64,000 nucleotides of DNA from Marsupella aquatica (taxonomy: Eukaryota > Plantae > Marchantiophyta), in the NCBI GenBank assembly GCA_973895155.1, contig OZ316893.1, forward strand, positions 23,458,015 through 23,522,014, in the 5' to 3' direction. Made by a program: the position numbers and the translations under genes. The notes beneath the pieces are model-generated. The model saw nothing but the letters and a program-made list of their open reading frames with translations, did no database searches and was not told the DNA's origin. Of this stretch, positions 31,751 through 54,221 are shown piece by piece (positions within the stretch are counted from its first letter, which is position 1; each line of letters opens with the position of its first letter).

Positions 31751-34077
31751 CATACCATTTCAAGGTCAACAATTTTCTCCAACCACTTCCAACATAGTGA
31801 CGGACCAAACGGGAAGTGTGACCACCCAACAAGAAGTGTGTTTTGGATTTTGCCAAAAATGGCAAAAAATCCCATAAATTTATCTAAAAAACATGAATTT
31901 TAGTAAGAATCTGAAATTGGATCCAACATCGGATTCCAACTCGAGATACTTTCTAACCAAAACTGGCAAATCTCTATAATTTCTAATTTCTAACACTTCA
32001 TCTCTAAAATTAGGAAAAACTTTGAAACGCCTATAGCAACTAGTCCTCTCTCTTGTCACACCATTTTAGGTAGTGTTAGAGTGTATCGTACTATCTAGAT
32101 CCGTATGTTTGGTATGTGTGCTATATGAGCCAATAAGGTTCTGTTAGGTTTGTGTGAGAGAGTAGTTCTCTCTTGTGAGGCATTGAAAGGTTATCTTTCA
32201 ATGTTGAGCCTTGGAGAGGGGAGCTTGTGTGGTGGCTATGGTGGCTGAGAGCTCTCTCTATGTAGCGTGGATTCCTTGAGTGCAAGGTGCGTTGGCTCGA
32301 CATATGTGTGTGATCGGATCGGACGGGATTGAGTGCATATTGTTGGCGTCGATTGTTGTTTGGATTCTATTGAGATTACATTGAAAGATCAGATGCAAAC
32401 TCTGTTGTGCGGACTGTGCAAACAGAAGTTTGATACATATTGATTGAATTGGCAACGGCTCGTGGAAATCGTTTGAAGCTATTGAGTGGATCCATGGTAG
32501 CTTGGATTGTACTAAATAGATTGTTAGTATTTCAATCTGCTGCTGTTTGTGTCTTGTTGCCGAGCTGTTTTGAGAAGAGAAATTGCAGATCGCTCATTGT
32601 TTCGCCATATCTGTAAGGAGACTATATTGATCTGGGCACATGATGCTGCTGTTGAATGGGTAGCCAACTTTGAATGTTGTTTTTCGTGAAGGAAAGCACT
32701 TTGCAAATGTTTGCAAATCATTGAGTAGACGTTGGGCAGGCGCAGGTGAAGCGAGGGGTTGCTGCCAAACCCGAAGTTTCATGAAAGGGCCAAAGTCTAT
32801 CTGCGTTTTTCATAAAGGAAATGACTCGCAAATATTGCCAAATTTGTGAGGGCTGCAATCCGTAGATTCGGTTCGACAGGGCACTGCATTGACGCAATAG
32901 GCTGTCCGCTGCATTTCCGTGAAGGAAACTCAAGGCCGAAGTGTGGATGTTGCCGAATCTGGAAGTTGAGTCCGGAGTAGCGGGCGTGAAGGGCTCATCT
33001 CAGCGTTTTGAGGCTTCGAGGCAACTTGTGGTTACTCGGGACATGAGGGCGAAGCAAGAGCAGGCGGGCGAGCAAGCCAGCAGCAAGCCTGGTACGTGAG
33101 GAGAATTGCAAATGCTACCATTTTGGAGTGACAGATTTGGTGCATAATGACAAGTGAGAGGTCACCCATCCCAAAGTTATTCCTCCCCTCATGAGCTTAA
33201 CTAGCAAGTTCCTATGTGGTGCATTGTACATGCTTCCTTACACACTTGGTGTCTAAGGAATGAGGCCCTAGGGGTTTTATGCACTTTTGAATTCATCTAG
33301 CTACTCTATTTGAACTGTGATGGATTCTTGAATATTTGACGCGAGATTCTTGAGGCCTATTATGAAGGCCCTACATTGAACTATATGAACATTATTTTCA
33401 CGTATTTTTGATTGATGTGGAGAGTTGTGGTAAATCCGCTTCTTGTTGTTGGATCCTCTCCACACATGCTTCCTACCCATGCGCCATGTTTGTGTTGTGT
33501 GGCCGGGCGCTTGATTCCAGAGGAGTGATTTGCAACCGAACACTCTAGCTGTGCTATGTATTTCTCTCATGGTGATGTTGGAGTGATGCCCAACACACCA
33601 TGGTGAGTGCTTGTGGTGTTGGCAGGGACATATTGCCCTTAGAGTTAGCACATAGATTAGGTTAGGTTGATCACCATGGATTCTTCTGGTGCTGCTAGGC
33701 TACCCGATGGACGATGGACCGGTTTCACTCGGAGTGGGGCGCAGTTTCAGCCAGTGGCATTGGTAGCAGTCAGCGGTGCAGCTTCAGACAATGATTCCGA
33801 TGAGGACTTAGTGACCAATTCTCCTCGTCATCAGGTGGTTGCACCTTTGTTGTGGGATATGGAAGAGATGTACGGGGCTACAAAGGGCCCACGACGATAC
33901 TCTGGTGTAGTTGTCATGATTGATATGGTGTCACCTGCTTATCAAATGACTAACACAACAAACACCACATGGTTCCACTAAAAATTGTTTGTATCGTATG
34001 ACGGGGACGTGGAGGGACGCTATATGGATCAATTTCATACTAAGGATGAGTAGATTCGTTTTCGCTTCCGGAAATGT

Positions 34078-37000
34078 ATTTTTTGATCAAGTCTACCGAC
34101 TATACGTAATTTGCTTTTGATCAAGTCCCGTGGACTACCTTGCTTCTACTCCTCCTGGCCTTTGGCAAAGTGCTGTCACCACTCTCCCACTCACAGGGTC
34201 GACCAAGCCATGTAAGTTTCTCTAAATACTCATACTAAGGGAAGAACACAATCGTGCAACCAAGAGAGGGAACAACACACAAGAAGTCATGAAAATCCAA
34301 CCGAATCCATATCTATTAGTGGCCAAGGTAACACATTGCATGGGCAACCCGGTCTCCTATCGTCTACCCAACTCCTATCTCACGGGACAATGCGCCTCTC
34401 CACCTCAATACTCCGGATCAATTCCCTACTCTTGTTGAAGGCTAATCCTCACAAAAACAACACTAGACTGAGTTCCCCCTTGCTCCTACCGGGGGCTGCT
34501 GGTTAAATACTGAAAACAACAATACGTGAACACACAAGCCCTAGGGTGTGGCGGCGGTCACTGCCCTGGCTGGCCGCCATCCATTGGCGGCGCCGCTAAC
34601 CTAAAAGTTTCTACACATGCGGCACACACATGCACCCCTAATCCTATTGCTACCTAAGTGAGGCCAACGGTGCCTTCGTCGGCCATCACATCACCTAAAC
34701 CAAACTAAACTAAGTCCTATATGAGTAGGCCATGGCCTACCTTCCAACACCTCCCACTACTCTGGCCATGGAAATAGCCGAAAGTCGAAGTTGATCGAAA
34801 TCTGGTCCTGAGAAATTTTATGAGTAGCCACGGCCATCCTGATCGTAACCCTGAAAACGGCTCCCAAAACGGACATCAGACGCCCGAGATATGGCCTACC
34901 GAGTCCCAAACTCTAACCTGGCCACTACCGCGTCCAAATAGTCCGTACGGTCCCGGCCTCCCATCACGACATCAAAATGAAGTACCCTGGCCATGGCCAC
35001 ATGCCCTGACTTGGCCGGGTCACTTTCCTGAAGGTTGTACGGACGTCCGTACGGCGTCGGACCCTAATTCTTCACCAAAATGTTCCGGTCCGTATCTCTC
35101 TCATTTTAACTCCGTTTGAGGCGTGTCTTACATCGTTAGATTCAGCTCGACGAGCTCCTTCCAATAAGCCCATGATTTGGCCAGTTGGACATGTGCCCAA
35201 AACCAACCTCCGTACGGTCAACCTCCGTACCACTACTCATCCTCCTCGGACTCACTTACGGTGCCGGGGCTCCATCCCCGAGAGTCATCACTGGCCTCAC
35301 TGCCCCCTGGGTAGATGCAACACCTCCTCCCCTACTCTTCCCCGGGGTTGCCCTTCCCAACGTTTGGCCCGAGGTTCCTTGCTTCCGTAATGCCGCCAAA
35401 GCCTACCAAGCCCTGATGTATCCGTGACCGATGGTGTCCTTCCACAACGTTGTCTCCTCATCACCCCGCAATTCCAGTGGCAAGACTTGGCCCATGGCCA
35501 TGGGAGTCCCCGGGGTCACCGACCTAGGTGGCATACCAGCGGTTCCCTGGCCAGACGTTGCGTTCCTTAGTGCTTTGCGGGTTGACTTCAACTTACTTTC
35601 CAGGCTCTTGCACTTCTCCTTGTCCTTCTTGGTCGCTTCCAACATTGGCCCGTAAGTCTTGGTTACTTCGATGACCATTGCATCAATGGCCTTGGCCAAC
35701 ATCCCTGGTGAAGCAACGGGAGTAACACCGGGGGGACAGGGCTTCTTCCTCTTCCCTAGACTTAGGGCGTCGGCTCTCTTGGCCCTTGTCTCATAAGCAC
35801 TCACCTGGCCACGCAACTCTGAAATCTGCTTTTTGAGGGCATCCACGCCCTTTTCGGCTTGCTTCATCGTTACCAGCTCCTTTCTCAAAGCAACTACTTC
35901 CTCGGCCTCCTTGGCCTTTGTGGACAGGGCTCCTTGCAAGTGGCCAACTTGGTCATAGGCCTGCTTCAACAACCTACTCCTCTCTTGAATAGTCTCCTCC
36001 TTGGACAGTATGACCTCCTTCAGCGACTTGTGCCCAACTTGCAAGGTGGCCACCTTTGCATTGGCCCTACTCAGAGCCCACTTCATGGCTTTGCACAATT
36101 GCCAGCCCTCGTTAATAGCATCACGGTACTCTTGCAATTTTGCCAAGTATACCTCTGGAATGTCATACACAATGGGCTCCTCGGGATTACCAATCAAGGA
36201 CTCCAACCACTGCATGGTAAACTCTTCATCCATATCCTCCTCTTCATCCGGTGCCCCCTCCACCACGGGCTCAGTGGCCAGTTCCTTGGTGGGATCCGTG
36301 GTCAAATTCTGTACGACGGTGGTGGCAATCTTTCGTAAGACGGTGGGGAAGGAGGGCAATACTCCTTCCTCTGGTTCGGGCACTGAGATGAGCCCCTCCA
36401 TCCTGTTCAAGAGAAATGACCCAAGAAAATGGATGATTCCTCCAGGCTTGTGGCCTTTGGGATCTGCGGTCAGCGTTTTCCTCAAACCAAACACCCACCA
36501 TCCGTACGTGTGCTCCGGGTGCTGCTTGATGTCCAATGCAATGGCCAAGTGTTCCCTGTAATTATACTTGATTGCACCCGGCTGAGTATCCGTTGATGGA
36601 CCTTTCCAACAAAACCCCTGAGCGCTGGGTCCTTGAAGGATGCAAGGGAAATGTGTACCACAGAGGTAGCCTCCTTCACGTACATGGCCAGCTCTTCCAA
36701 TGTGAGTGTCCCTGGTGGCTCCATGGGGTAGAATGTCAGGTCCTGGTTGTGCAACATCAGCAACCGAGTCAATTCGTCACGAGGGAGGGTGCGCTTGATG
36801 CATGCAAAGTACAATCCATCATCCCGTAAGTCCATCCCATCCTCAATGTTCCAATGCCTATCCATTGGAGCACGCATGTCCACTCGCATTAAATTGATAA
36901 TCCCGGTGGATTCAAACAATTCACGGCTATCGTCCAGAAGCTTGGCCAATGTCTTGGGGTATGAACGTCGTTGAGTCCTTCGTGACATGGGTGCTTCACT

Positions 37001-38507
37001 GGTCCCTGACATTGTGGCCCTGGTTGCCAATTTCTCTTCTTCTTCTCTAGCTAGCTGCAAAGCGATGTACTCCCGGTAGGCCGCCTTGTACCTCCTAATG
37101 CGAGCGTTGGTGAACTCAGGTTTGTCTTGAGATCTCATCCACTCCACTCCCCCTCAAGAGCACAACCGGTGACCAATTCTCGTTCCTCAATTCCCAGAGC
37201 TTGGCCTCGTGCGGCCCCGTACCCAACCACGATAAAATAAATCAGGTTCCCTCTCCAAGTCCTTGTCAATCCCCACTCCAGCTCACTCCATGGCCACTCT
37301 CAGAATCACTCAAGGAAAATAGAGGTAGAACATGGCACCAAGAGGAAGGTTGATGAGGAGAAAAAATGAGGTTCGGCAATGAGTGAGGAGCGCAAAAAAA
37401 CTGAGAAAAAAGAGTTGGACAGGAGCACTTATGTAGGCCGCTCCTCCCCCTAGTTTCGCTCCTAATGGCCAAGGCCTCCCTTCCTGCCCTGCGTACCTGC
37501 TCAGCCCCAAATTTGGGGGGATCCCCTGGGATCCAAGGACCTTAACTGCCCCCTCCCCCTCGGACCTTCTCCACCAGGTTTGGGGGGATTTTAATCCCCC
37601 TTCCTCCTTACGCACCTGCTCCCCCAGGGTTGGGGCATTTATTATCCCCCTCCCCCTCATCTTCGCCCTCTCTCACTCCCTTTGGCGCGCATCCCTATGG
37701 GCGCCTTAATGGCCAACCCCCGTCCACCACCTTGGGGCCCGGTGCCCTATGCTCCCGAGTTTGAGGATCCCCCTGGGATCCAGGGGCCCTTAACTGCCCC
37801 CCCTACGTACCTTCTCCTCTAGGTGTGGGGGATTTTATTACTCCCCTCCCCCCTTACGCGCCACCTGCCCCTATGGCCGCGGCCTCCCCTTGGAAGGGGG
37901 ATTTAATCCCCATTGTGCCCCCTCCTAAGTCCGGGCCTCCCCTTGGCCGGCTCCTCCTTGCGCCTTCTTGCTCGCTCCTTACCGGGCTGGCTCCACTTAT
38001 GCTCCTCCTGGCCGGCTCCCTCTCCCGGGCCTTCTTTCCTGCCCCTGGCCAACTCCTTTTGAAAGGGGAATTTAATCCCCCCTTTGTACCCCTACAAGCT
38101 AAGGCCGGGCCTCTCTTTGGTCGGCTCCCTCTCCCGGGCCTCCTGCTTGCTATGGCCAGCTTCTTTTGGCCGGGGCTAATTTGTGTTGGGGTCCGTGTTG
38201 CTGGCCGGGGCACCTCATGCGACGCTTGGCCACTAACTTCTTTGACCGGCCCCCATACGTAAATACTAGGGTTGGTGATAAAAAATTTAAAGCTAGATAA
38301 TCCCCCGGCTCCAGCATGGAATGGCAATAGGGCACATGCCTTGGCCCGGACCGGCCAGCGGCCAACCCCCCAACTCTGAGGCTTGGCCAACAACTAAAAT
38401 TAAGAGGACATAAAAACCATCAATACTCACCTCATCTTATTGTACGTAAACTATCTTTTGGCGAGGTTGTAAGAGAACAAAAACTTGACACAAATCTATT
38501 TATTTAC
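34078..38507 (-). mobile_element. Unclassified 4.4-kb insertion in gypsy gag, flanked by ATGT direct repeats
   Basis: ATGT at 34074-34077 and 38508-38511. Removal restores gag FRFRKC-VRHYYPLK. Confidence 0.7.
35403..37147 (-). pseudogene. Coiled-coil protein of unknown function (221-aa and 381-aa ORFs joined by a frameshift near 36550)
   Basis: Two overlapping long ORFs with an acidic patch and a heptad-rich coiled coil. Resembles accessory/antisense ORFs of Tat/Athila-type retroelements (inference). Confidence 0.5.
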
Positions 38508-40007
38508 ATGTGTGCGTCACTACTACCCTTTAAAATCATTCTTTGGGACCATTGGCCCCGTCACATCTGGATGCTTCATACAGGAGTTTGATACGTGGTG
38601 CGATATGCAGACATTGCGTAACGCCACGTTGGTTACCCCTTTCATGGCATGGAAGGGATTATTTCAACATTTGGAGGGGCCACCCATGAATGACTACCAT
38701 GAGTTTTGGAAAGCTCATTTGGTTGAGATTGAGGGATGGAGGCAGCATATATTGGTCGCCTAAGTACGTGTCCATCACCTATGGCACTAGTGCAGCTGCC
38801 CAACCCATTGCCACAGCTGTTGCTTCTTCTAGCAACACTAGCAAGAGTGGCACACCATCCACCAGTAGCACTCCAGCAGCATCCACCGCTACTCCTGCCG
38901 GTGTGATTGTGACAGGGACTGGAGTTGTGAGGTGGAATTCTTTGAGGTGGAACTCCTGTGGTGGAATTCTTTGAGATATTAATTGAAGCAGAACTATCAG
39001 GGTGTGAGAACTAATAAGTTGAAGGGTCTCCAGGAGTTTCAGCGCAAGGCTAGAGAGAGTCTACGGGAGGCATACACTCGTATGCACAGATTGATCATTG
39101 TCACCAAGGGAGTGATAGAGGCTCAGACAGTCCAATTTTGGTATGCAATTCTGGACAAAGAATTGCGACGCAGAGTGAGAGATGTCACTTTGCTTAGGGA
39201 TGCAGATCTCACATTAGCAGTTGTTTTTACACTTTCTGAGCGCATTGAGCTCAATATGGTGAATGAGAGGGTGATGACTTCCGGATTTGCCAAGGAAGCA
39301 CCAAAGGTTGCATCTACATCCACACCACAACCTATTGCATGGAAGAGCCAAAGGGAGAAGCCTACTATACGAGAGTCTACCAGCTAGAGACCTGTGCCCT
39401 CTTATGCTGGACAACAGTCAGGATGTTGGACCTGTGGTGGGGATCATGCACAGAGAGATTGCTCAGATCATAGAGGATCAAGGGGAGCATCAGCAACAAT
39501 GTGATCATTGTGGAGCTCCTAGACACACCAAGGATAGGTGTTTCTCACTCCATCTTGAGTTACGAAGAGGAGGATCCCGTACACATGATCAGGGAAGAGG
39601 AGGAGGAGGTAGAGGTGGTGGACGTGGTCGTGGCATGCCACATGGAGGGAGACAAGGAGGTGACGCTGCCCCTGCTATAACCATAGATCCAAAGGATGCC
39701 TAGGATTGCTCAATTGGAGCAACAGCTAGCTGCACGCTATGGCTAGTTCCCAAATGAGACCTACTTTTGGTGATGGGGCATCTACATCCTATGGACCTTC
39801 CACATCTCATGGTCCTTCTACATCTTATGGAGTTGATGGAGACCTTGCCACCATGGGATTCATGTGTGGCACTACACATATTGATGCATCAGCAGCTTTG
39901 ACACGTGGAGCCAAAGCTCTTGAGCCCCAAGGAGTAGTAGTGGAGCTAGATCCACAGAGGAGGGATGCATGTCGGCAGACAAAGCTTACTCAGTCTTTTA
40001 CATTGAT

Positions 40008-41510: not shown

Positions 41511-41886
41511 CAGGAGGGTTTTCACCGTGACAGCAAATAGCAAACAGATTTACTGTTACGAGCAAAAATTTTCCTGTTACGAGCAAAAGTTTACTGTTAC
41601 GAGCAAACTAGACAATCTAAAAATGTGTCATTAAAAGTCACAATTTTCAAAATAATTTAAAACATGACAACTTTTTGCTAGTGTAAGGCGATACTATTAC
41701 TAGCTCCGGGCGCTAGCCAAAAAATATCGACTCACAAAAAAAATTTAATATTTTTTCCCCAAATTTTTTTTCAAAATTTTGTTTTAGAAAAAAAGTTCCC
41801 AAAAAAGTTCCAAATTTTTTTCCACCCGTTTGCTGTTACGAGTAACTATTTGCTGTTTGTTGTTTGCTGTCACGGTGGTTATACCC
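41511..41886. mobile_element. MITE (~375 bp) just upstream of the DNMT domain
   Basis: Inverted CACCGTGACAGCAAA / TTTGCTGTCACGGTG, internal CTGTTACGAGCAAA x3, flanking CTTGG direct repeat. Removal restores PIAW-KYPSEG. Confidence 0.75.
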
Positions 41887-41889
41887 CTT

Positions 41890-42871
41890 GGAAGTATCCA
41901 TCGGAGGGTATTTGCTTGTTAGATCTATTTGGTGGGATTAGCACTAGATTGGCTACTGTTCTTCAGGCAGGAATTCCTATGCGTTGTTATTTGTATGTGG
42001 AGACAGATGAGACAGCACGAAGGGTCTCCTTGCGGCATGTAGCTATGTTGGTGGATAGATATCCATAGTTGCTGCCAGTGGATGTTGTTTGTGGTTATCA
42101 GCATGCACTACTTGCTAATATTTCATTGTTAGGGGCGGATCATTTGCATCGTGTTGGCCTCATTGATTTGGTGATTGCTGGTTGGCCATGTCAGGGCCAA
42201 TCTAGAGCTGGCGTTGGGCATGGCTTCATGATCCACGCTCTGCATTGTTTTGGGAGATGTTACGGGTGCTACATCATCTCCAGACACATCAGACACAGTC
42301 TCCAACATACACTTTGGAGAATGTGCCATTGTTAGGTGATGATCGTAGTCAGATTGTTGCCAATGTTCACCAGATGCGGTCTTGGATTGGACCTACTATG
42401 TTATTGGATGCTGCATGTGTGGGTTCTTGTGCACATTGTCCATGCTTATGGTGGACTAATTTGATCCCATGTGAGGTGCTGAAGTGCGCATTTGACAGCA
42501 TTTCACGCTCACTAGCCTTAGTGGTGGATGACATTTTGGATCCAAGGCATCGTGCACAGGGTGTGATCCAACCTGATAGACCTCCATTGGCAGTGGTCAA
42601 TGTAGTTGGGCGCCCACGTTGTGCATTACCCACTCTTGTGAGCCACTCTGCTTCATATGCATTCAGAGTAGGTGGTCCTGGACTTGTGTGGAACATAGCT
42701 CTCCAGCGGTTAGTGGAGCCTACTGCTGATGAGAGGAAGCGTGCTATGGGATTTTTGATAGGCACCACTATAGTTGCCTCAGTATCTCAGAGTTCACGCC
42801 GCCAGGTCCTTGGTCAAGCAATGGATTTGAATTGCTTGACTTGGATTATCAGCTTGGGAGTAGCTGAATAG
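41890..42871 (+). pseudogene. DNMT3-like C5 cytosine methyltransferase domain within gypsy pol
   Basis: Motif I LDLFGGIS, motif II YVETDE, motif IV DLVIAGWPCQGQSRAG (PCQ at 42186-42194), motif VI ENV (42317-42325), motif VIII-like AHCPCLWWTN, ERKRAMGF, motif X RRQVLGQAMD. One stop (42066-42068) and one frameshift (~42230). Confidence 0.88.
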
Positions 42872-43093
42872 TTGCGGATGCACTCTACTGGTGTTCCTGA
42901 TCGTCCATTAGTGAGCTTGCGGTCCATTGAGATAATGATGACCACAGCTGGGGGTGAGCAGACAGTCCATGGACCTATGGCAAGAGTGACCAAGGTTGGA
43001 CAGATTGTTGAGCAAGAAGAGACTGCTCAATCTACTACTAAATAACAATCATCGGCTATCTCTTCTACCCTACAAAAAGATATTAAGGATTTT

Positions 43094-46000
43094 GTGGAGA
43101 GTTGGGAGCCACAGATTGGTCCTAAGTTGACAAGGGAGGAGAGATGTCGCATGCATCAATTCCTGAAGAGTTACTGGAATTGTTTTGCATTCAGCATGAA
43201 GGATTTGGGGACATTGAAGGGCCCTGGTATTCAGATTGAATTGGCTAGTGATGCGCTAATCTTTTGTAGACCATACCATTATAGTGACATGGAGAGAGCT
43301 CTGATTCAAAGCAGAACTCAAGATTTGTTAGAGGCTGGATTGGTGGAGATTTCATATGGGGAATATGCATCTGCCACAGTGATGCCAGCCAACTAAGAAA
43401 GATGTGCATGGCGCGACAATTACACAGATAGGCGCATGTGTGGTGATTACAGACCTATTAATTGCCAAACAAATCTGATCGATATGCCATGCCCACACCT
43501 GAGGAGATCTTTGATGTTGTGGGGCATGCAAAGGTTTTCAGTTCATTGGGTCTGAGGGTAGGGTACCATCAACTTCCAATTAGGCATGCTGACAGGTCCA
43601 AGATAGCATTCTGGGGAATTGATTCTTATGATAAAGATCGTTTGTATTAGTGGTTGTTCTTACCATTTGAGTTGAAGAATGCACCAGCTGAGTTCCAAAG
43701 AGTCATGGATCGAATCCTTGCAGATTTGGATTTTGTCAAATGTTATATTGATGATATTTTGGTCTATTCTTGTACTGTGGAAGAACATCGACAACACTTG
43801 CAGATTGTGTTGGAGAGATTGAGAGCACATGGGTTGAAGCTCCATCCTGGCAAGTGTAAGTTCTTCGAAGACTAGATTGAGTATTTGGGCCACACTATAT
43901 ACCCAAGGGGATTGGGTGTACAACAGACTAAAGTGGAGGCCATTACACAGATTCCTCGTCCTACTGATGTGAGTAGAGTTTGTGAATTCTTGGGATTGAC
44001 GAGCTACTATAGGAGGTATGTTAAAGGATTTAGCCAGCTTGCTAAACCTTTAACCATACTCACTAACTAGATCAGGAATGGATTTGGGGTGATGATCAGG
44101 AGCATGCCTTTCAGGAGTTGAAGCAAAGGTTGGCATCATCCCCTATTTTGAGAAGACCCATTTTAGGTAGACCATTTCGATCAGCTACACACTGATTGGA
44201 GTGGAGTAGCACTTGGAGCAGTGCTGACTCAGAAAGATGATGAAGGGCATGAGTTTGTTGTGGCATATGCTAGTAGATCAAACAATTCAGCTGAGGCTAA
44301 AACAAGAAGCCTTAAAGGGTGAGTAACAAGCCCAAACTCTAAGCACTCTCGTAAAAAAATTGCAGAAACAAAGAAAATGGCAAAAAAGTGGCCAAAAATA
44401 CTACCTGTTTTTTGACAAAATTATAAAACAAACTGAAAGTATTAAAATGACACACTTTTTTCACCATCTCCTAATTACAAAATGATCTCAACTTACTTTT
44501 GATAAAATTACTACCTATAATTTTACTATGCCATTTTAGCAATTTTTACCAAAACATGATTTGTATTTTTAACAAATGATCAAATTACCTCCATAATTTA
44601 TTAGACTTGGGAAATTTTCAAATTCATAAAATATGATCTCTTTTTGACTCTCCAACATGCGCCCCTTCACTCTTTGAGGAAGACTTTTCAATGGAAGATG
44701 ATATCTCCACAAATTCACCACCTACGCTTCCAGATGTACCCGTTCTGATCCAAATCAGATCACTCAATGGCTCCTCTTTTACTCTCAACCTGGCTCTCAA
44801 CATGCCTGAGTTTGATTTGTTAGGCAACATCTGAATTTCACAAACATATTGACCCAACTGGGCTCCCCCAACCTCTTCTTGGGGACCTCTTCCAAATTCT
44901 TATTCTTCCCCTTCAAGTTAATTTCTTGATATTGATTGGCTTCCAATCTCAGCCAAATGATGCAAGTGTGCCCGGGTGACCTTCTTGTGATGATCCTTTC
45001 CTTGCCGGAATTATTTGCAGCCTCAGTAGGTCTTCTTGTGTCCCCGCTTGTGTCAGCGCTCTTACACCTTCCTGGAATTTGAGAGATGTCAGACGACCAT
45101 ATTCACTCTCTCCCCTTGGTGCTTGTTGCAATGCTTGACCTTTCCAAAATGCACAACAATCTGGTTTTGAGACAGGACTTAGTGTTTTTAGAAACTTGTT
45201 ACAATCGGTCTTCATGAATTCATGAGTCCGCTTTCTCAACTGTCCACTATCTTGAAGACCCTTGAGTCGGACACCCAAATTAACACTAGTCTCAACCACA
45301 TGGGATAGAACTTAACGCCCGGGGAGGCTAGTGCTCTCAAATGAGTGGGAAGAACTTAATGTAGACAAAACACACAAAAGAGCAAAAACCCTTTAACTTG
45401 AAACAAATGAAATAACATGTTTTCATGAATAGAGGACGCCTATTTGAACTTAATTGGTCCTTTCTCTAATTTAAATGAATAAGAAATGCTTAAATCATTT
45501 TTCAATAATTAAGCCAATCCTTTCATGACATAGATGAACAAGTCAAGGAAAAAGTTGAAAAAATTATATTTCCAAAAGTTTTTTATGACACAACACTTTA
45601 TTAATTAGTCTTCTTGGCTACTAGGTGGTATCCTAGTCCTTTGACTTTTTGGCTTGTTGGGCAACTTAGGGCTTCTTTGGGCCTTTTCCCTTCCCCATAC
45701 CTCCCTTTACTAGATTGCTCAATTATTAATCTCACAATATTGTTTGGACTACGCAATCCAGTTTACTTGGAGAAATAAATCATTTTTAGGTTTGCATTCC
45801 CACGTTTCATGAGGATAAACATTGGCATTAAAAACCCATATGTTTTTGCCCACCAGTAAAAACCCATATGTTTTTGCCCACCAAGATACGTACTTCCATG
45901 ACTCATGATTGGAGAGTTTGTCTTGTTGACCTACTGTTTCCATATGCTTTTTGGAATATTGGCATTTGGAGCACTTTTTGCTTTTATTTCACCATATTTT

Positions 46001-49000
46001 TTGCATTTCTTGAGATTGAGTGGTTTGTCTTTATCCCCTTTTCTTTCACTTTTGAAGTCTTTCTTTTGGCTATTCTGGAGATTCTCTCCCTAAGATACCT
46101 TATTCTCTTTCATGAATTCATGAAGGGGCTACCACCTGGGAAACTGAGAAACCAAAAGCTTCATGAATTCATGAACCCCAAAACTGGTTGTGACAAAATA
46201 CAAAGGGCAAAGACTCTGTTGCAGGCTCAATGACCTACAAAGGGCTAGGGTAGCCAATTGGCTATGGCAAAGGAGGCTGCGGCCTGGAGAGGGCTATTGC
46301 CCCTCACTTAAGCTCAAGTCGCATCAAGGTGCTGTCATCAGCTGCCGATTGAGGTCAGGCCTAATTTATGGTCTGGGAACGACTGCTAATCTCTGCTGTC
46401 GCCTTCAAAATCCTGAAGCTGAAATTTTGAATTCCTGGTTTGATGTTGATGCTTTGATTGCTGGATTTCACCTGAGTGTTGGACTTTGATTTCTCAGATT
46501 TGGTTATTGAATGAGCTTCTACTGTGATTGACTGCTGCTTGAATTAGCTGTGGTAGACTCTGATTAAATGAGACAGATTCCAATTAGGGGAGATAGCCAC
46601 AAAGGATCAGGGATAATTTGTGAAAAATTGAGCTTGAGAGCTAGATCTCAATCGAGCAGACCTAAGGATTGAAGGGGGAGCGAGTGGAGGATGGGAGAGG
46701 GAGCAAGGGAGATTGGAATGGGATTGATAAGGATTGGAAGGGGATTGGAAGGGGATTGGAAGGGGGGCCATTTAGGGATTGGAGGAGGGTGGACAATCGA
46801 CCGTCAGGGGAACGATCAACCATCAGAGGGGGATGGAGCACCGGAGGAGGGCAGTCGAGCATCAAGGGGATGATCAAACATTGGAGGGGGAGCGGTAAAA
46901 GATCGGGGGGGGGAGGGTTTAGGATTGGGGAAGGGTTTCACTAATCAGGGACCGGGGGAGGGCCGATCGGGAATCAAGATTGATCCAGGGAGGATTAAGG
47001 GTTGACCAGGCCTGGTCTGGGTCAAAATTGAGTCCAAGGTGGGTGGATTGGGAGCAGAAGCAAAGAGAACTATCGAGCTTGGGGGAACTAACTGGAGGGA
47101 GCTAGGAGGATCAGGTAGCTTCTTTCAGGTGAGAACCCGGCTTCATGATTTCATGAAGCCAGGTGGCTGCCCAAATCAAACTCGATGTACATTTCAATAT
47201 TGGTATGGATCAAGAGAGTGGGGAGGACGTGAAGCGCACCAGAGTAGAGGGTGCAACAGAAGATGTAACTATTGAGCTAGCTCGGATTGAAGCAAGGATC
47301 TTCTAGAAGTGGAGAGGAGGTTAGAGAAGCCTTAGATTAGTTGAGTTGCATTGTATTTAGAGATTTAGTGGACTTAGATGCACACCTACAATGGATAGTG
47401 GCATTCTAATTAAGATTTTGAGTTTGTAATTAAGTATGGATTTGTTGTTTTTGGTAATTGTGAAAATGATGTTGAAAATATCCCAAGATTTTCATTGAAA
47501 GAATTATAATAGCAAAGTTCACAAAACATGTTTCATTTTTATATGTTTTTTTAAAGCACTTTTGGAAAAATCATGAAAATCTTGAAAAAGGAATTCGGGC
47601 CTTGGACTCATCCCTTAAGGCTCCATGTTCTAAGTATAGCTCTTATGAGGGAGAGTGTTTGGCAGTAGTGTGGACTGTGGAACACTTCTGCTATTACTTG
47701 TTTGGTAATCCTTTCACTTTGATCACTGATCATCAGCCTCTCAAGTGGTCATCAGCCTCTCAAGTGGTGAATGGAGTCTGACAAGCTTACTCGAAAGCTT
47801 GCAAGATGGGCACTGTTGTTGCAGGAGTATGATTTCCAGATTGTACATAGACCTGGAAAGGTGAACTTGGATGCAGATGGGTTGAGCTGCAACCCATGTA
47901 CCAGTCAACAGGATGAGACTGGAGCCAAATGGCATGATGAGTTAGATAAGGAGATGGTGCCAGGATGGCATATATGCATCTGCCTTTCTTTGTTGGGTGC
48001 CAACATACAATGGATCTGTGGACTCTACCTCATTGGATGGAGTGGACGAGGCTTCAGATGTGGATGTTGGTGAGGTAACTTCTGGACAACAAGATATTCA
48101 CAATGATGTGAGAGTGTTGGAATATTTGCATAGTGGTTCTATTGTTGGCAGTGTTGATGCCAAGGAACGTGACAGGGTTCTACAGAGAGCCAAGAGGTTT
48201 TGATGGGAGGGAACCATCTTCTAAGAGTACTGCGTGATGGTAGGGTGTTCGTGGTACCAAAACCATCACAACGAGTACATTTGGTGCGACATGCGTACGA
48301 GGAGTTGGGTCACTTTGGTGTGAAGCGCACTTACAGCTTGTTGCAAACACAGTATTGGTGGCGTGGTATGCACACTCATGTCAAACAATTGATAGCTAAG
48401 TGTGTGGTATGTGATAGAGTGAGAGCATCATTTAATGCTCCCACTCCCCAGTTGCATTTGTTGCCGATCATGGGTTTGGGATATCGTTGGAGTTTGAATT
48501 TTATTGGTCCATTACCTGTTACCCAACGTCATAATCGGTATGTTTTGGTCATGGTGGAGCACTTCTCCAAGTTGATTGAGCTAGTGGCGTTGCCAGATAA
48601 AGCCAATGGAGGAGTTGCTGCTACATTTTTGGATTGCATACTCAGTCATTTTGGAGCACCAGCTGAGGTGTTGACTGATCAGGGAACTGAGTTTCATGGA
48701 GAGTTTGAGAATTTGTGTGAGCAAGCTCTGATTGATCATCGTACTACCTCTTGTGATCATCTTGAGGCAGATGAATTAGCTGTAAGAGTTGTGCAAACTA
48801 TGAAGAGAGGATTGCGTAAGTATGGCTTGCAAGTTGGTCATCTGGGAGATTGGGATCTCCAACTACCTTGGTTAGCTATGGGCTACCGTTTCAGTTGGCA
48901 AACATCACTTGCATCCTTCTCACCTTACTTTTTGCTCTATGGTAGAGAGCTAGATTTGCCAGCAGCCATTTGTCGTGATGCATTAGTTGTGAACTTGGAT

Positions 49001-49153
49001 GATCCTGATGTTTGGGTCAAGGTGTGTTCAGAGAGAGCACGGGTATTTCAGCGAGTGATGCCCATGGCTTTTGACAACCTTGCCATTGCCCAACATCGTG
49101 ATACTTTGAAGTATGCCACTATTCGTGGAGGAGGTTATCGTGCAAGCATTTGA
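43094..49153 (+). pseudogene. gypsy RT-RNase H-integrase, decayed and split by the 44301-47629 insertion
   Basis: RMCGDYRPIN, GYHQLPI, PFELKNAPAEFQRVMD, YIDDIL, FLGLTSYYRRYVKGF, TDHQPL, LARWALLLQEYDF, and an integrase core. Confidence 0.92.
44301..47629. mobile_element. Non-autonomous TIR DNA transposon (3.3 kb) with 4-bp TSD CTAA
   Basis: Imperfect ~33-bp TIRs AACAAGAAGCCTTAAAGGGTGAGT / ACTCATCCCTTAAGGCTCCATGTT. CTAA at 44297-44300 and 47630-47633. Removal restores RNase H NSAEAK-YSSYEGE. Confidence 0.85.
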
Positions 49154-49395
49154 TGATTTTATCCTATTGATTATGTTTATTTGCAGCAAACAGCACCCAC
49201 AACACTTGATGTGACCGTAGGCCGGACAATCTTACATGTGCGTGAAGTGTTGCCTTCTGGTGTCCTGATTTTGGAGGGACGCGATGGTATGGTTTGGAAG
49301 GATCATGTGCGCAACTGTGCACCATGTCACCTTCCCAACATTGATGGTACGGTAGATCTAATTCAAGCTTGGCACATGTTTGTGCTGGCTTGAAA

Positions 49396-49536
49396 TGTAT
49401 GTTGTGTGGATCTTCTCAGGGAGCAGCTACTATGTTGATTTGTGATAAGTGTTCTAGAGGATGGCACATGTCGTGTTTGACACCACCATTGCAGGTGATT
49501 CCTAGTGGATCATGGTTGTGTTCTCAATGTTGGTGA
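49396..49536 (+). pseudogene. PHD finger at the C-terminus of the gypsy integrase
   Basis: Hand translation CMLCGSSQGAATMLICDKCSRGWHMSCLTPPLQVIPSGSWLCSQCW* gives a canonical C4-H-C3 with the conserved W. Confidence 0.9.
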
Positions 49537-49713
49537 ATCCGACTAGTTATCAGTTTGTGTTCTCTTGGAAGATATGGATTGCAGGTAGGTGATCGATGGG
49601 GCTCACTTGCACCCGACCTCCTGATCTTCACACCTAAAAAGGTGTATATCAACCTTGTAGAACTCATGGCTAGCTAGAATTAGGGGACTTTATTCCCAGC
49701 TAGGGGGGGCGAT

Positions 49714-50172
49714 TGTGGGTTTTGGACATGTGTGGACATGAGTTCCACTTGTATTCCATTATCTTGTGTTTGTGATGTGGCAGTGTGACTATGTGTGGAT
49801 GTATGTGACAAGCGATGTATGTTGTGTAGCGATGTGTATGCGCACGACAACTGTCACACCATTCTAGGTAGTGTTAGAGTGTATCGTACTATCTAGATCC
49901 GTATGTTTGGTATGTGTGCTATATGAGCCGATAAGGTTCCTTATGTGAGAGGGTAGTTCTCTCTTGTGAGGCATTGTTCAAAGGTTATCTTTCAATGTTG
50001 AGCCTTGGAGAGGGGAGCTTGTGTGGTGGCTATGGTGGCTGAGAGCTCTCTCTATGTAGCGTAAATTCCTTGAGTGCAAGATGCGTTGGCTTGACATATG
50101 TGTGTGATCGGATCGGACAAGATTGAGTGCGTATTGTTGGCGTTGATTGTTGTTTGGATTCTATTGAGATTA
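49714..50172 (+). repeat. gypsy 3' LTR (5' LTR copy at 32054-32380 is 5'-truncated; extra partial copy at 50174-50276)
   Basis: Starts TGTGGG just after the PPT. About 320 bp are highly similar to 32054-32378. Confidence 0.75.
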
Positions 50173-50276
50173 TTGTGGGTTTTGAACACGTGTGGACATG
50201 AGTTCCACTTGTATTCCATTCTCTTGTGCTTGTGATGTGGCAGTGTGACTATGTGTGGATGTATGTGACAAACGAT

Positions 50277-51538
50277 ATAGATTGACCGTTCCCTAAGTAT
50301 ACCATTCAGGAATGTTGTCTTCACCTCTAAAAGGATGGCCTCAAGGTCATAAAAAACCACCAAGGATAGAATGAGCCTTATAGATGTGATTTTCACTACT
50401 GGCGAAAAAGTATCCAAATAAAAAACCCCATAGACTTGAGAGTAGCCTTTGTATCTAACTTGCAATACTTCCATCCGGGTTATACTTCAACTTGAAAACC
50501 CACTGGCAACCCATCACTTTTTAATTCTGACTATGGCCATGTGTTGTTTTCCTTCAATGAGTGTAACTCATCATTAATGGCTTTCCTCCAGTGTTCTGCA
50601 TCTAGTCTTGTAAGTGCCTCCTTCAAAGAAATAAGTTCTACCGTTCTTGGACCAGATTCAGTCACTAAGGCCACAATGGCTGAATTGGAGTCAAAACCAT
50701 ATCTTCTCATTGTATCTTCTTCATCTTTCCCCTTCCAAATTTTGGTTCTGAAAATTCAATGTGAGTAGAGGTATCATCTTCTATTGAACGTTCAAATTCA
50801 TCAAAAGGTGTTGCAAAATGATTCTGTGGACATGGATCATGGTAGTGGACTATAACTTGGTTGTGGTTCTCTTGTAGTAGATGTGCCTGAAATTTCAAGA
50901 GCCTCTTCTCTAACATAACCTGGTGCATTAGCTCCCACTTGAGCTATTTAAGGTCGGCTAGTGCTAGTGTTGGTGCTCCCACTGGACCTGATGCCGGTGC
51001 TAGTACTGGTGCTCCCACTGGAGTTGGTGTTGGTGCTAGTGCTATTTGAAGATCGAATAGCATCGGATCATCCAACTTTGAAGTAACTGGTCCTTTTCCA
51101 CCGGGTTGGTCCTCTTTAAATCAAACGTCTCTTATCACAATCACCTTGCGATCGGTTGTTCGTTGAACCCTATAGACATCTCTTGATGTTGAGTCTTCTG
51201 GATATCCCAAAAAAGATGCAATCTTCGGGATGATTGACTTCCCTCGATGGTTTTTGTTGATGTTAAGATGCATTATACATCCAAAAACCCTGTGATGTGA
51301 TAAGTTTGGTTTTTTCCCATACTAAGTTAAGCTCATATGGTGTCTTGTTGACATCTAGTGCTTTTGTGAGTGTTCAATTTTGAAGGTAATTAACTGTATG
51401 AATAGCTTCCCCCAATAGGATTGAGACAGACCTGAATGATTCAACAAAGATAGAATCGACTCCACTAGTGTTCTATTATTTCTTTTAGCTAATCCATTTT
51501 GATGAGGAGCCTTTGCAACTGTAAATTGCCATCAATGT
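50277..51538 (-). mobile_element. Decayed Ty1/copia remnant: integrase 3' part and RT N-terminal half (same element as 30640-31750)
   Basis: KGYSQVYG..YLDTFSPVVKITSIRLIL, EVKTTFLNG, PHQNGLAKRNNRTLVES. Collinear with the fragment on the other side of the gypsy. Confidence 0.8.
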
Positions 51539-52445: not shown

Positions 52446-53144
52446 CGTCTCTAGTCACCATTTTCCGTCATCTGCCACACACACTATCAGCAATCTATAT
52501 AAGGAGCTAGTAGCATTCCCATCTTCCTCATTCTTCATTCTTCACATCCTCTTTCATTCTCTCTCGCCTTGTTCTGCAATCGTTCCGTCCACTGCAGCCC
52601 TATTGTCGGCAGATCTCAACAACTTCGTGAGCTTGCTTTGGTGGACCCATTCCCGTTGTTGTATCTTTCGACATCTCTCTACAATTCTCTTCAAGATAAT
52701 TGAGTTCTCTCAATCGAATCTGGAATCCAGTTTTGGTGCTTCACACGTTGTAAGCTTCTTGCACGATTGTAGATAAAGTATTCAATTTAACTTAATGTAG
52801 TACTTTGGGGTTTAGCAGGTCGATTTGCGTTCCTATTGTTGAGAGGTTGAAGGCAAGTCAGTCGATATTCTGTGTTATTCAGTCTGCCATTGGCTGTCCA
52901 GAAAGTAGTCATCTGCGCCGTTTGCTACACTGTAAACAGACATTGTCACGGTTTTAGTAACCAAGTTTTAAGTCCGAATCTGTCAACGTTTTTTGGCTTG
53001 CGCTCGAGCTAGTACAATTGTATTCACTGCATTTATCTGCTTTCAGTCATAGGGAAGATCTGGAGGTACCTGATCACGGTGAGAATTCGATTTTCTCTTT
53101 GATTTTGCTAGGTTTCTTTCCAGGAAATTATACCCGACTTTACA

Positions 53145-54221
53145 ATGGGCTCTCAAGGCATTTCTTCTGTGTATGAGGAACTTCTTCCTGGCATCCCGGA
53201 TGACGTTGCTTTAAACGAGATTGCTACAAAGATCGCAGGAAAGGATGTGGGTACCTTGTCTTTAGTAAGTCCTCGATGGCGACAAGAAATTCAGCATCGA
53301 GTGGTCTATGACTCGAGACTGCGAAGGTGTTCCACAGATACTCACGTAGTCCTTCGAGTGTGGGGTCGCTGGTTCAATGGATTTTGTCTTTATTCCTTGA
53401 CCGACCACACTCTGCATCAATTTCATCGACTCCCAAACCGTCGCTTTTCGTTCCAGTTCATTACCTTGGATGGTAAATTATATGTCTTAGGAGGAGAAAG
53501 CTGGTGGACCGAGAGAAATCCTGAAAATGATTCCAGAAAAGTATTTGTCTTGGATTTGGCTGGACAACAGAAGTGGAAGGAATGTGCAAGTATGCTGCAA
53601 CCACGACGAGAGTTTGGATGTGGTGTCATGAATGGGAAGATTTATGTATTTGGTGGTAGTTCTGTCGGCTACGGGCATCATCCAGAAGGCGCATCAGAGG
53701 TGTATGACCCGGAGCTGGACGCTTGGTCCCCGGTAAAGAGCATGCCACTAGGGGAAATGAGCCATATCGTTAGACCCGTAGGTGAAGAGCTTTTTGTGCA
53801 AGGTCGGGATCCATCTCCATTTCAAGTTTACCATCCAGGTAGTGATCAGTGGCGAACCCTGGAGCTGAGAGGATATGCGCGACGAATGTTCATTTTCCGC
53901 GGAGAATTCTATAAGTTCAGTGAGCATGGCATTGAAATCTACGACAATGAAAACAGTTTGTGGATACTTCGGTGTTATATCTCATGTGATGAACTTGGAC
54001 CGGTTCATTCTGTAGTGATTCATCCCAAGTTTATTTTACCTGTGAATAACGAGCTGTTAGCGAACATGAGTTGGTGCAATGCAGCGAACCGAACCCAGGG
54101 AAACTCTCTGCTTCTAAGTTCCGGCTTCGGGGGCAGGGGCCAGGACGTAGTGTGGCGGAAAGCACCACTCACTTTTGAATATCAAACGTTGAGTGATTTC
54201 ATGTGCCTTGTTGAGCTTTGA
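53145..54221 (+). CDS. F-box/kelch-repeat protein (array copy 2)
   Basis: Intact 358-aa paralog of 3014-4108 with the same F-box and kelch motifs. Confidence 0.92.
   Translation: MGSQGISSVYEELLPGIPDDVALNEIATKIAGKDVGTLSLVSPRWRQEIQHRVVYDSRLRRCSTDTHVVLRVWGRWFNGFCLYSLTDHTLHQFHRLPNRRFSFQFITLDGKLYVLGGESWWTERNPENDSRKVFVLDLAGQQKWKECASMLQPRREFGCGVMNGKIYVFGGSSVGYGHHPEGASEVYDPELDAWSPVKSMPLGEMSHIVRPVGEELFVQGRDPSPFQVYHPGSDQWRTLELRGYARRMFIFRGEFYKFSEHGIEIYDNENSLWILRCYISCDELGPVHSVVIHPKFILPVNNELLANMSWCNAANRTQGNSLLLSSGFGGRGQDVVWRKAPLTFEYQTLSDFMCLVEL

What the first reader, a model, noticed from the sequence alone, without database searches (positions are those of the whole stretch)
49396..49536. PHD finger in the place of the chromodomain at the end of the DNMT-gypsy integrase
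Seen: a complete C4HC3 PHD, missed by the ORF track, directly after the integrase tail and ~170 bp before the PPT. Established: chromoviruses put a chromodomain here for target selection, and PHD fingers read the H3K4 state, as the PHD-like ADD domain does for animal DNMT3. Inference: one polyprotein couples a histone reader (targeting) with a DNA-methylation writer.
Basis: partly seen in the sequence, partly recalled or inferred. Interest (0 to 1): 0.72.

Follow-up and report, generated by a model that had tools for sequence, protein, structure and literature searches.

The report
Histone-reading finger on retrotransposon integrase
A dead copy of a plant jumping gene ends its integrase gene with a real PHD zinc finger that likely steers new copies to chromatin lacking active-promoter marks; the finger is standard across a large green-plant family that also carries a DNA methyltransferase, but it appears to serve the integrase rather than the methyltransferase.

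Summary
The C4HC3 PHD at 49396-49533 is real (PF00628, 48 bits). In this decayed copy two stops and a frameshift cut it from the integrase core; both breaks are private to this copy. 104 of 120 integrase homologues carry the PHD in the same ORF, from chlorophytes to liverworts. It lacks the methyl-lysine cage Trp and resembles readers of unmethylated H3K4. In the closest intact relatives a conserved stop with a readthrough-type context (39 of 46 loci) separates Gag-PR-DNMT3 from RT-RH-INT-PHD. In algae the DNMT sits elsewhere, and one subclade lost it and kept the PHD. Best reading: an integrase tether that avoids H3K4me3 promoters (0.6). The element is a Gypsy-DNMT3 (KnitGypsy-Dnmt3 kind). 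PHD in Gypsy Pol is published (Gypsy-7a_cRei), and this scan noted the same pairing before on other DNA. The odder feature is the ends. The LTR used in replication (PPT to self-priming site) is circularly permuted against the integrated ends, which carry 4-bp target duplications. This suggests integration from a circle.

The parts
32054..32377 (+). A1: left terminal repeat part; begins with TG, the left integrase end of the element
   Evidence: 93% identical to 49852-50172; same end carries 4-bp target duplications in relatives
32193..32204 (+). 12-nt stretch inside A1, about 30 nt behind a TATA-like box in relatives, complementary to the site just behind A1; likely self-primer at the 5' end of the transcript
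   Evidence: 12 of 12 complementary; none of 2000 shuffles reached 12; matching pairs with unrelated letters in two other LTR families
32378..32389 (+). primer-binding site of self-priming type
33787..40005 (+). gag region, broken, interrupted by a nested insertion at about 33927-38533
   Evidence: tblastx to L001 and L009
40441..41178 (+). aspartic protease region, broken
   Evidence: tblastn with P0178 and P0028; own profile
41523..41877 (.). small AT-rich insertion with inverted ends (MITE-like) between protease and DNMT
   Evidence: sequence
41878..42868 (+). DNMT3-like C5 cytosine methyltransferase domain, broken (stop and frameshift); motifs I, IV (PC) and VI (ENV) still readable
   Evidence: intact relative L001 hits PF00145 and DNMT3A/3B structures first
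43043..43051 (+). conserved in-frame stop followed by a CARYYA hexamer between ORF1 (Gag-PR-DNMT) and ORF2 (RT-RH-INT-PHD); likely readthrough signal
   Evidence: stop + CARYY in 39 of 46 records examined, background 0.7%; single stop in intact loci L001, L002, L031, L035
43097..47775 (+). reverse transcriptase and RNase H, many stops; RNase H split by a 3.3-kb insertion at about 44320-47628
48251..49357 (+). integrase: H2C2 zinc domain, DDE core (first catalytic Asp reads Asn in this copy), helical linker and beta-rich C-terminal domain; two stops at 49151-49156
   Evidence: Pfam PF17921, PF00665; model of an intact relative matches foamy-virus and Ty3 integrases
49396..49533 (+). C4HC3 PHD finger (the finding); type without a methyl-lysine cage
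49698..49711 (+). polypurine-like tract directly before B1, conserved in relatives; likely plus-strand primer
49712..49849 (+). B1: first part of the 3' repeat; ends with CA, the sequence at which sister copies end
   Evidence: loose ends with unlike flanks behind 49849 in 4 of 4 runs
49845..49857 (+). internal CA-NN-TG junction: right end and left end of the element joined head to tail with a 2-bp spacer
   Evidence: same motif behind the PHD in relatives from several families
49852..50171 (+). A2: second copy of A
50172..50279 (+). B2: second copy of B, cut about 30 bp short by a Copia RT fragment on the minus strand
   Evidence: 94% to B1; RVT_2 hit

Best explanation
The stretch is the PHD finger at the C-terminus of the integrase of a dead Ty3/gypsy retrotransposon of the Gypsy-DNMT3 kind, and in active copies it likely works as a chromatin tether that binds the unmethylated tip of histone H3 and steers integration away from H3K4me3-marked promoters. 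Shown: the fold signature, the in-frame fusion in relatives, the fixed position behind the integrase C-terminal domain, the lack of a cage Trp, and independence from the position or presence of the DNMT. Inferred: ORF1 (Gag-PR-DNMT3) is made in excess and ORF2 (RT-RH-INT-PHD) by stop-codon readthrough; the protease then leaves the PHD on the integrase. The DNMT3 would then be a separate, capsid-level component that likely methylates the element's own cDNA or new copy; it would not be an enzyme aimed by this finger.
For: PF00628 complete match. PHD in the same ORF as the integrase in 104 of 120 homologues. Of the 16 without it, 9 have no match to the integrase tail, and 7 keep the tail but end early or run into other sequence. 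In an RT-RNase H tree 61 of 70 clade members carry it and 0 of 66 distant sequences do. The distance from integrase start to PHD is 359-388 aa throughout; mean pairwise identity is 47% in the PHD, 50% in the integrase, 31% in the linker. Two residues before the zinc-binding His the family has Gly in 96 of 104 and Trp in none; Asp follows the third Cys in 97 of 104; the Pro-x-Gly-x-Trp loop is kept. The best solved relatives are DPF3, CHD4, ATXR5, KDM5 PHD1, BHC80, AIRE, BAZ2A and UHRF1 fingers. ATXR5 binds H3 A1 through Pro60/Gly62 and R2 through Asp41/Asp44 (PMC5499861 section 14), and unmodified-H3 readers lack the aromatic cage (PMC4291147 passages). The DNMT sits before RT in the streptophyte-type group, between RNase H and integrase in the chlorophyte-type group, and is absent in a nested subclade (support 0.999; P0050 and P0068 run from protease to RT and from RNase H to integrase without it) that keeps the PHD. 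Stop + CARYY lies before RT in 39 of 46 records; CAR YYA is the TMV readthrough consensus with about 10% efficiency (PMC2754532 passages). A PHD-bearing Chlamydomonas Gypsy inserts between genes 2.6 times more often than chance (PMC9940879 passages).
Against: No binding or insertion-site data exist for this family; nothing here measures targeting. The second R2-binding acid of ATXR5 is Asp in only 6 of 104 (Asn 37, Gly 31), and the subgroup closest to the window has no acid before the first Cys, so H3 binding may be weak or indifferent to K4. The mapping to ATXR5 rests on motif spacing and an ungapped hit range; that alignment was not printed. 42 of 120 proteins do hold DNMT, integrase and PHD in one ORF, and in the chlorophyte layout the DNMT match ends only 100-245 aa before the integrase match, which leaves room for coupling there. 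The full CARYYA hexamer is present in only 8 of 46; most records belong to one family whose sixth base differs, and several records are the same insertion. The window copy lies inside an array of kelch-repeat genes, which does not by itself look like heterochromatin. The Chlamydomonas bias could be selection after insertion, as its authors say, and that element was not shown to belong to this clade.
Confidence: 0.6

Rival explanations
1. The PHD and the DNMT3 act as one reader-writer unit, like ADD and the catalytic domain of animal DNMT3: the finger senses unmethylated H3K4 and licenses methylation of the new insertion. This could happen in an uncleaved readthrough protein, within the integration complex, or as a DNMT-INT-PHD product in the chlorophyte layout.
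For: Both domains are kept together from chlorophytes to liverworts; 42 of 120 proteins carry DNMT, integrase and PHD in one ORF, P0178 as a single 2811-aa ORF. The DNMT is DNMT3-like and keeps the catalytic Cys in 31 of 34 proteins checked. The predicted H3K4me0 preference is the same as that of ADD (recalled).
Against: No ADD match. A conserved stop lies between the two domains in the closest relatives. The DNMT changes place or is lost while the PHD stays with the integrase. A related element puts a PHD before the integrase and carries an adenine methylase instead (P0452). The isolated KnitGypsy DNMT gave no methylation in yeast, a result its authors call inconclusive (PMC5890265).
Confidence: 0.15
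2. The finger is a general nucleosome anchor that binds the free H3 N-terminus (A1, R2) with little regard to K4 methylation; it raises integration efficiency on chromatin, and any bias between genes comes from later selection.
For: The A1 pocket (Pro 100, Gly 80, Trp/Phe 102 of 104) and the first R2 acid (97 of 104) are conserved, while the positions that would read K4 vary. TIP5 binds K4me0 and K4me1 equally and K4me3 only about tenfold worse (PMC4291147).
Against: The closest structural class discriminates against K4me3 (PMC5499861).
Confidence: 0.15
3. The finger does not read histones; it is a structural or protein-binding module of the integrase, for example for the complex that opens the circular intermediate.
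For: An almost invariant Cys and His (103 and 94 of 104) lie about 20 residues before the finger and could tie it to the integrase C-terminal domain. The family has an unusual end structure.
Against: The conserved surface residues beyond the zinc ligands are those that bind H3 in solved relatives. The model gives a confident finger (pLDDT about 87-93) but no fixed arrangement of domains (pTM 0.45).
Confidence: 0.1

Closest known systems
KnitGypsy-Dnmt3 of Klebsormidium nitens / streptophyte Gypsy-DNMT3 (de Mendoza et al. 2018, PMC5890265; passages read, supplements searched, figures not seen)
   Same: Gypsy Pol with a DNMT3-like domain before RT; repeats arranged 'as in a DIRS retrotransposon'. 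A K. nitens protein (P0028) has the same order, is 52% identical to the window integrase and falls in the same RT-RNase H clade.
   Different: The text and the three supplements held do not mention a PHD; Fig. 4c could show one. There the DNMT is in the Pol ORF; here a conserved leaky-type stop separates it from RT. The paper treats the capture as one of the K. nitens lineage; relatives here span liverworts, Sphagnum, Coleochaete, Closterium and chlorophytes.
Gypsy-7a_cRei and REM1 of Chlamydomonas reinhardtii (PMC9940879 passages; REM1 only as cited in PMC6673714 and PMC8557442, the paper itself not held)
   Same: PHD finger in a green-algal Gypsy polyprotein, with the proposal that it limits harmful insertions; intergenic bias of 2.6-fold.
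   Different: No DNMT is named in the passages. The figure legend lists RT, RH, PHD, INT, which matches a neighbouring layout found here (P0452, P0473: PHD before integrase) and not the C-terminal one. Membership in this clade was not tested.
Chromoviruses (Neumann et al. 2019, PMC6317226, passages)
   Same: A small histone-reader domain behind the integrase C-terminal domain; self-priming as in the Tcn1 and Tf1/Sushi groups.
   Different: PHD instead of chromodomain; predicted to read the absence of an active mark rather than the presence of H3K9 methylation; permuted ends.
EpiLTRs (bioRxiv 10.64898/2026.05.21.726589; section 8 and passages read)
   Same: An LTR element that joins a histone reader with a cytosine methyltransferase.
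   Different: Chromodomain plus DAM plus a DNMT4-related DNMT there; PHD plus DNMT3-like here.
Split-direct-repeat tyrosine-recombinase elements (PAT, Ngaro, TOC1; search listing only, mechanism recalled)
   Same: A ... B-A-B arrangement of terminal repeats.
   Different: DDE integrase, TG/CA ends and 4-bp target duplications; no tyrosine recombinase in intact ORFs.

Membership tests
PHD finger (PF00628) | Cys4-His-Cys3 zinc ligands with the late Trp | tested here: met
   seven of the eight ligands in 102-104 of 104 relatives, the last Cys in 97 (His in 4)
Unmethylated-H3K4 type PHD (ATXR5, KDM5 PHD1, BHC80, TIP5) | no aromatic cage; no Trp two residues before the zinc His | tested here: met
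   Gly 96, Ala 6, Trp 0 of 104; the position of the cage Trp is recalled, the absence of a cage in this class is from PMC4291147
Unmethylated-H3K4 type PHD (ATXR5, KDM5 PHD1, BHC80, TIP5) | A1 pocket (Pro-x-Gly) and Asp after the third Cys for R2 | tested here: met
   Pro 100, Gly 80, Asp 97 of 104; ATXR5 contacts
Unmethylated-H3K4 type PHD (ATXR5, KDM5 PHD1, BHC80, TIP5) | second acid after the fourth Cys | tested here: not met
   Asp in 6 of 104; Ser in the window
Unmethylated-H3K4 type PHD (ATXR5, KDM5 PHD1, BHC80, TIP5) | measured binding to unmodified H3 tail | not testable with these tools
   needs peptide binding assays
Gypsy-DNMT3 (KnitGypsy-Dnmt3 kind) | DNMT3-like domain with Gypsy RT, RNase H and DDE integrase | tested here: met
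Gypsy-DNMT3 (KnitGypsy-Dnmt3 kind) | DIRS-like (split) arrangement of terminal repeats | tested here: met
Gypsy-DNMT3 (KnitGypsy-Dnmt3 kind) | groups with the K. nitens element in an RT tree | tested here: met
   P0028 lies with the window's closest relatives inside the clade of support 0.986 (FastTree)
Gypsy-DNMT3 (KnitGypsy-Dnmt3 kind) | DNMT in one open frame with RT | tested here: inconclusive
   true for P0028, P0017, P0178; in the window's subgroup one conserved in-frame stop intervenes, likely read through
Chromovirus | chromodomain at the integrase C-terminus | tested here: not met
   no chromo family in the annotations of 120 hits or in scans of 28, 12 and 23 proteins
Chromovirus | RT-RH-INT placement inside the chromovirus lineage | tested here: inconclusive
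   no named chromovirus references were available; the outgroups were unlabelled multi-copy gene models
ADD-DNMT3 reader-writer unit | ADD domain next to the catalytic domain | tested here: not met
   no ADD family at E <= 0.1; PHD about 1,000 residues from the DNMT with RT, RNase H and integrase between
DIRS/PAT/Ngaro (tyrosine recombinase elements) | tyrosine recombinase | tested here: not met
   none in both ORFs of L031 or in P0178; perfect 4-bp target duplications in 8 of 12 two-ended loci
Phygy (moss non-chromovirus) | tRNA-Trp primer site and NCGN target duplication | tested here: not met
   definition from the supplement of PMC6317226; 0 of 8 perfect duplications are NCGN and the primer site is of self type

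The most novel reading that the evidence does not exclude
This is an old green-plant Ty3/gypsy clade with its own life cycle. It reverse-transcribes like a self-priming LTR element, joins the cDNA into a circle, and its DDE integrase opens the circle at a CA-NN-TG site in the middle of the LTR, as IS3/IS30-type transposases do. The PHD (with a Tudor-like partner in chlorophytes) docks the complex on H3K4-unmethylated chromatin. A DNMT3 made at capsid level, ahead of a leaky stop, methylates the new copy, so the element both chooses silent chromatin and arrives pre-marked.
Probability: 0.25. Interest if true: 0.8.

Novelty: new variant of a known kind. Interest (0 to 1): 0.47.

Why it matters
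Chromodomains are the known targeting readers on LTR integrases. A PHD that reads the absence of H3K4 methylation would be a second solution, kept across chlorophytes, streptophyte algae and bryophytes, and it can be tested with one peptide array. The leaky stop tells where a transposon-borne DNMT3 likely acts (at capsid level, on the element's own DNA), a question that the 2018 description left open. The permuted ends with target duplications point to circle-based integration by a retroviral-type integrase, whereas circles are usually taken as dead ends (recalled). They also mean that ordinary LTR finders would misplace or miss this family. The PHD-on-Gypsy idea and the Gypsy-DNMT3 family are each already in print, which caps the surprise.

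Tried and rejected
No genome is held for the window, so sister copies in the same assembly and insertion-site statistics could not be studied. The sequencing-run search listed no RNA holder. The REM1 paper and the Sanchez and Zhou PHD review were not held. The Chlamydomonas repeat library was not in the supplement held, so Gypsy-7a_cRei was not placed in the tree. Figures of de Mendoza 2018 were not seen, and its Fig. 4c may bear on novelty; supplements of the two bioRxiv preprints could not be seen. The RT tree could not name the nearest outside lineage: its outgroups were mostly multi-copy gene models, two of them checked and from animals. A first motif count suggested that most chlorophyte-type DNMTs lack the catalytic motif (9 of 33); this came from too narrow a pattern, and the catalytic Cys is there in 31 of 34 (PC 10, EC 17, SC 4). 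Rejected: chance motif or host gene fragment (fixed place in 104 relatives); ADD origin; Phygy; tyrosine-recombinase element; ordinary LTR pair with a truncated 5' LTR (target duplications flank the start of A and the end of B). The reciprocal product expected if a two-LTR circle were cut at either site (A-B-A-internal-B) was not seen in the 19 records that show A1, so the simple circle model is incomplete. No complex with histone H3 was modelled. No tRNA gene lies in the window. Searches that found no paper on PHD plus DNMT3 in one Gypsy, on readthrough in this family or on its permuted ends; the library lacks most subscription journals and theses.

Full report
OBSERVATION. The stretch 49396-49533 translates to a complete Cys4-His-Cys3 finger and matches Pfam PHD over the whole profile (E 1.2e-12, 48.1 bits, cut-off 24). 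It follows the integrase tail, and the G-rich tract lies about 165 bp behind its stop. In this copy the finger is not in frame with the integrase core: two stops at 49151-49156 and a frame change near 49357 intervene. The pol region holds 11 stops in the pieces aligned to a relative, and the first catalytic Asp of the integrase reads Asn. Contigs from 4 of 4 public runs laid on the stretch show a high-copy family (319 to 4,256 pieces laid per run). Most depth in these runs differs from this copy at both breaks, so the breaks are decay. A1 and A2 differ by 13 substitutions, all transitions, and CpG is depleted in the element (0.31-0.45 of expected, against 0.81 in a neighbouring kelch gene), as expected of an old methylated copy. 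The closest named relatives are from the liverworts Riccia, Calypogeia and Marchantia and from Sphagnum, so the host is likely a bryophyte.

THE ELEMENT. It spans 32054-50279: A1, gag, protease, DNMT, RT, RNase H, integrase, PHD, PPT, B1, A2, B2. Later insertions lie in gag (about 33927-38533), before the DNMT (41523-41877) and in RNase H (about 44320-47628). The DNMT of an intact relative matches human DNMT3A and 3B first among solved structures (E 5e-11), ahead of DRM-type and bacterial enzymes (the DRM label is recalled).

IS THE PHD FUSED TO INTEGRASE? Yes, in relatives. A search with the window integrase for longer proteins listed the best 120 of 210 hits; 104 of the 120 carry a PHD in the same ORF. 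Of the other 16, nine have no match to the integrase tail and seven keep it but end early or continue with other sequence; one of these (P0023) ends in a degenerate Cys-rich stretch. Named hits include Coleochaete, Klebsormidium, Closterium, Haematococcus, Volvox, Tetrabaena, Scenedesmus and liverworts. Among 62 DNA records with both tail and finger (61 loci and the window), 54 keep them in one stop-free frame and 6 keep core, tail and finger in one frame; many of these loci are one family and some are the same insertion. In an RT-RNase H tree of 139 of 165 proteins (26 lacked a full RT-RNase H pair), 61 of 70 members of the clade carry the C-terminal PHD and none of 66 distant sequences has one; two of three neighbouring sequences have a PHD before the integrase. 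A model of an intact integrase-PHD (62 sequences, mean pLDDT 81.7, pTM 0.45) gives zinc domain, core, long helix, beta-rich C-terminal domain and finger, and matches foamy-virus and Ty3 integrases. The position is thus equivalent to that of a chromodomain. No chromodomain was found in any relative scanned, so replacement of one by the other is not shown.

WHAT DOES IT READ? Across 104 fingers, identity (47%) is close to that of the integrase (50%) and above the linker (31%). The residue two before the zinc His is Gly in 96 and never Trp; this is the site of the cage Trp of H3K4me3 readers (recalled). Asp follows the third Cys in 97, and the Pro-x-Gly-x-Trp loop is kept. The best solved matches are DPF3, CHD4, KAT6A, ATXR5, BHC80, KDM5 PHD1, AIRE, UHRF1 and BAZ2A fingers. 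In ATXR5 the equivalent Pro and Gly hold H3 A1, two Asp residues hold R2, and K4 sits in a shallow pocket (PMC5499861, section 14 read); unmodified-H3 readers lack the cage (PMC4291147, passages). Against this, the second Asp is present in only 6 of 104, and the window's subgroup has no acid before the first Cys. Binding of the unmethylated H3 tip is therefore a prediction, and its sensitivity to K4 methylation is uncertain.

DOES IT SERVE THE DNMT? Probably not directly. (i) In the intact loci L001, L002, L031 and L035 the DNMT ends ORF1 and a single in-frame stop precedes RT. The nearest in-frame stop before RT is followed by CARYY in 39 of 46 records examined, against 0.7% of all stop triplets. 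The full CARYYA is seen in 8, the window among them; the 7 misses are decayed copies; most records are one family, but about six divergent groups agree. CAR YYA is the TMV readthrough consensus, with about 10% efficiency (PMC2754532, passages). The DNMT would then be made with Gag in about tenfold excess over INT-PHD (inference). Some members have no such stop (P0028, P0178). (ii) The DNMT lies before RT in one group and between RNase H and integrase in the other, and the two groups separate in an integrase tree of 126 sequences (midpoint root). (iii) A nested subclade (support 0.999) lacks it and keeps the PHD; P0050 and P0068 show protease-RT and RNase H-integrase without it. (iv) The finger is not an ADD. 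In favour of coupling, 42 of 120 proteins do hold DNMT, integrase and PHD in one ORF, the DNMT lies close before the integrase in the chlorophyte layout, and its catalytic Cys is kept in 31 of 34.

THE ENDS. The repeats read A ... B-A-B in the window and in five two-ended loci, and A ... B in seven more. Perfect 4-bp target duplications flank the TG of A and the CA of B in 8 of these 12; two more match at 3 of 4 bases and two do not match. Sister copies of the window's own family end at 49849, the CA of B1, with unlike flanks. B1 and A2 are joined by CA-NN-TG. Yet the replication signals mark another unit. The purine tract sits directly before B. The bases directly behind A are complementary to a stretch inside A about 30 nt behind a TATA-like box: 12 of 12 in the window, up to 17 in L009, and 14 of 14 for L001 against L003, with unrelated letters in the three families. 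Other copies match at 9-14 of 14, and none of 2,000 shuffles reached 12. This is the self-priming pattern known from Tf1/Sushi and Tcn1 elements (PMC6317226, passages). The A2|B2 joint is the exact union of the end set by the primer site and the end set by the purine tract in most of the 15 records printed, with about 20 extra bases in L022. The simplest reading is that reverse transcription makes B-A ... B-A, the ends are joined, and the integrase opens the circle at the internal CA-NN-TG (inference). The reciprocal product was seen in 0 of 19 records that show A1, and A ... B copies could also arise by later recombination between B1 and B2, so the model is not complete.

COMPARISON WITH WHAT IS KNOWN. 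KnitGypsy-Dnmt3 (PMC5890265; passages read, three supplements searched, figures not seen) has the DNMT3, the Gypsy domains and DIRS-like repeats, with no PHD in the text. PHD fingers in retrotransposons and the targeting idea are in print (PMC6673714, PMC8557442 and bioRxiv 2021.11.30.470311, passages). Gypsy-7a_cRei has a PHD in Gag-Pol and a 2.6-fold intergenic bias (PMC9940879, passages). Chromodomain plus DNMT plus DAM elements are described as EpiLTRs (bioRxiv 2026.05.21.726589, section 8). The survey of plant LTR lineages does not mention PHD or methyltransferase (PMC6317226, text and supplements searched). Nine searches found no paper that states the PHD-DNMT3 pairing, the leaky stop or the permuted ends for this family. 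This scan has noted the PHD-DNMT pairing twice and the permuted LTRs once on other genomes; these are AI notes and not independent evidence.

VERDICT. The finger is real and standard for its family. It most likely tethers the integrase to H3K4-unmethylated chromatin (0.6). Direct reader-writer coupling is a minority reading (0.15). The element is a variant of a known kind with undescribed details; interest 0.47.

Noticed in passing
proteins P0041, P0050, P0068 and others (tails behind the PHD): Chlorophyte-type members carry a further small domain behind the PHD (45 of 57 tails of 85 aa or more, own profile seeded with 10 of them). It weakly matches the PTM/DIR17 Tudor family (E 3e-4, below cut-off; atlas score 0.83, a lead only): a possible PHD-Tudor double reader on an integrase.
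   Followed up: partly
protein P0452: A neighbouring Gypsy with the order Dam adenine methylase, RT, RNase H, PHD, integrase; the DAM-LTR preprint text does not mention PHD domains. P0473 also has the PHD before the integrase.
   Followed up: partly
window 49321-49335 and relatives: A C-x-x-C-H motif at the end of the integrase C-terminal domain, about 20 residues before the PHD, with Cys in 103 and His in 94 of 104; possibly an extra zinc site. Unexplained.
   Followed up: no
chlorophyte-type DNMTs: The Pro of the catalytic PC motif is Glu in 17 and Ser in 4 of 34 proteins checked while the Cys is kept.
   Followed up: partly
window 32178-32204; L009 about 1830-1858: The presumed self-primer is also one arm of a short hairpin inside A, whose other arm resembles the primer-binding site; it could mask the primer sequence in the 3' repeat.
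   Followed up: no
protein P0343 (Marchantia Mp_7g09570): A gene model labelled as a PHD-type protein is made of pieces of this element (DNMT, integrase tail, PHD); such models can inflate host PHD and DNMT counts.
   Followed up: partly
window 2903-4105, 53112-54218, 55190-56277, 61628-62797: An array of kelch-repeat genes (likely F-box/kelch) on both sides of a block of transposons.
   Followed up: no
window 18336-24209: A young Copia-type element on the minus strand with identical 197-bp repeats and long ORFs.
   Followed up: no
window 33927-38533 and 44320-47628: Two nested insertions; the first holds minus-strand ORFs of 457 and 223 codons without a Pfam match above cut-off.
   Followed up: no
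window 57619-58558: An array of 35-bp and 17-bp tandem repeats.
   Followed up: no
window 5084-5382 and 29512-29792: Long inverted repeats (94-97%) 24 kb apart, likely ends of a DNA transposon.
   Followed up: no
proteins P0166, P0246: Pieces of this plant element are filed under cyanobacterial names in public databases, likely plant or algal DNA in metagenome bins.
   Followed up: no
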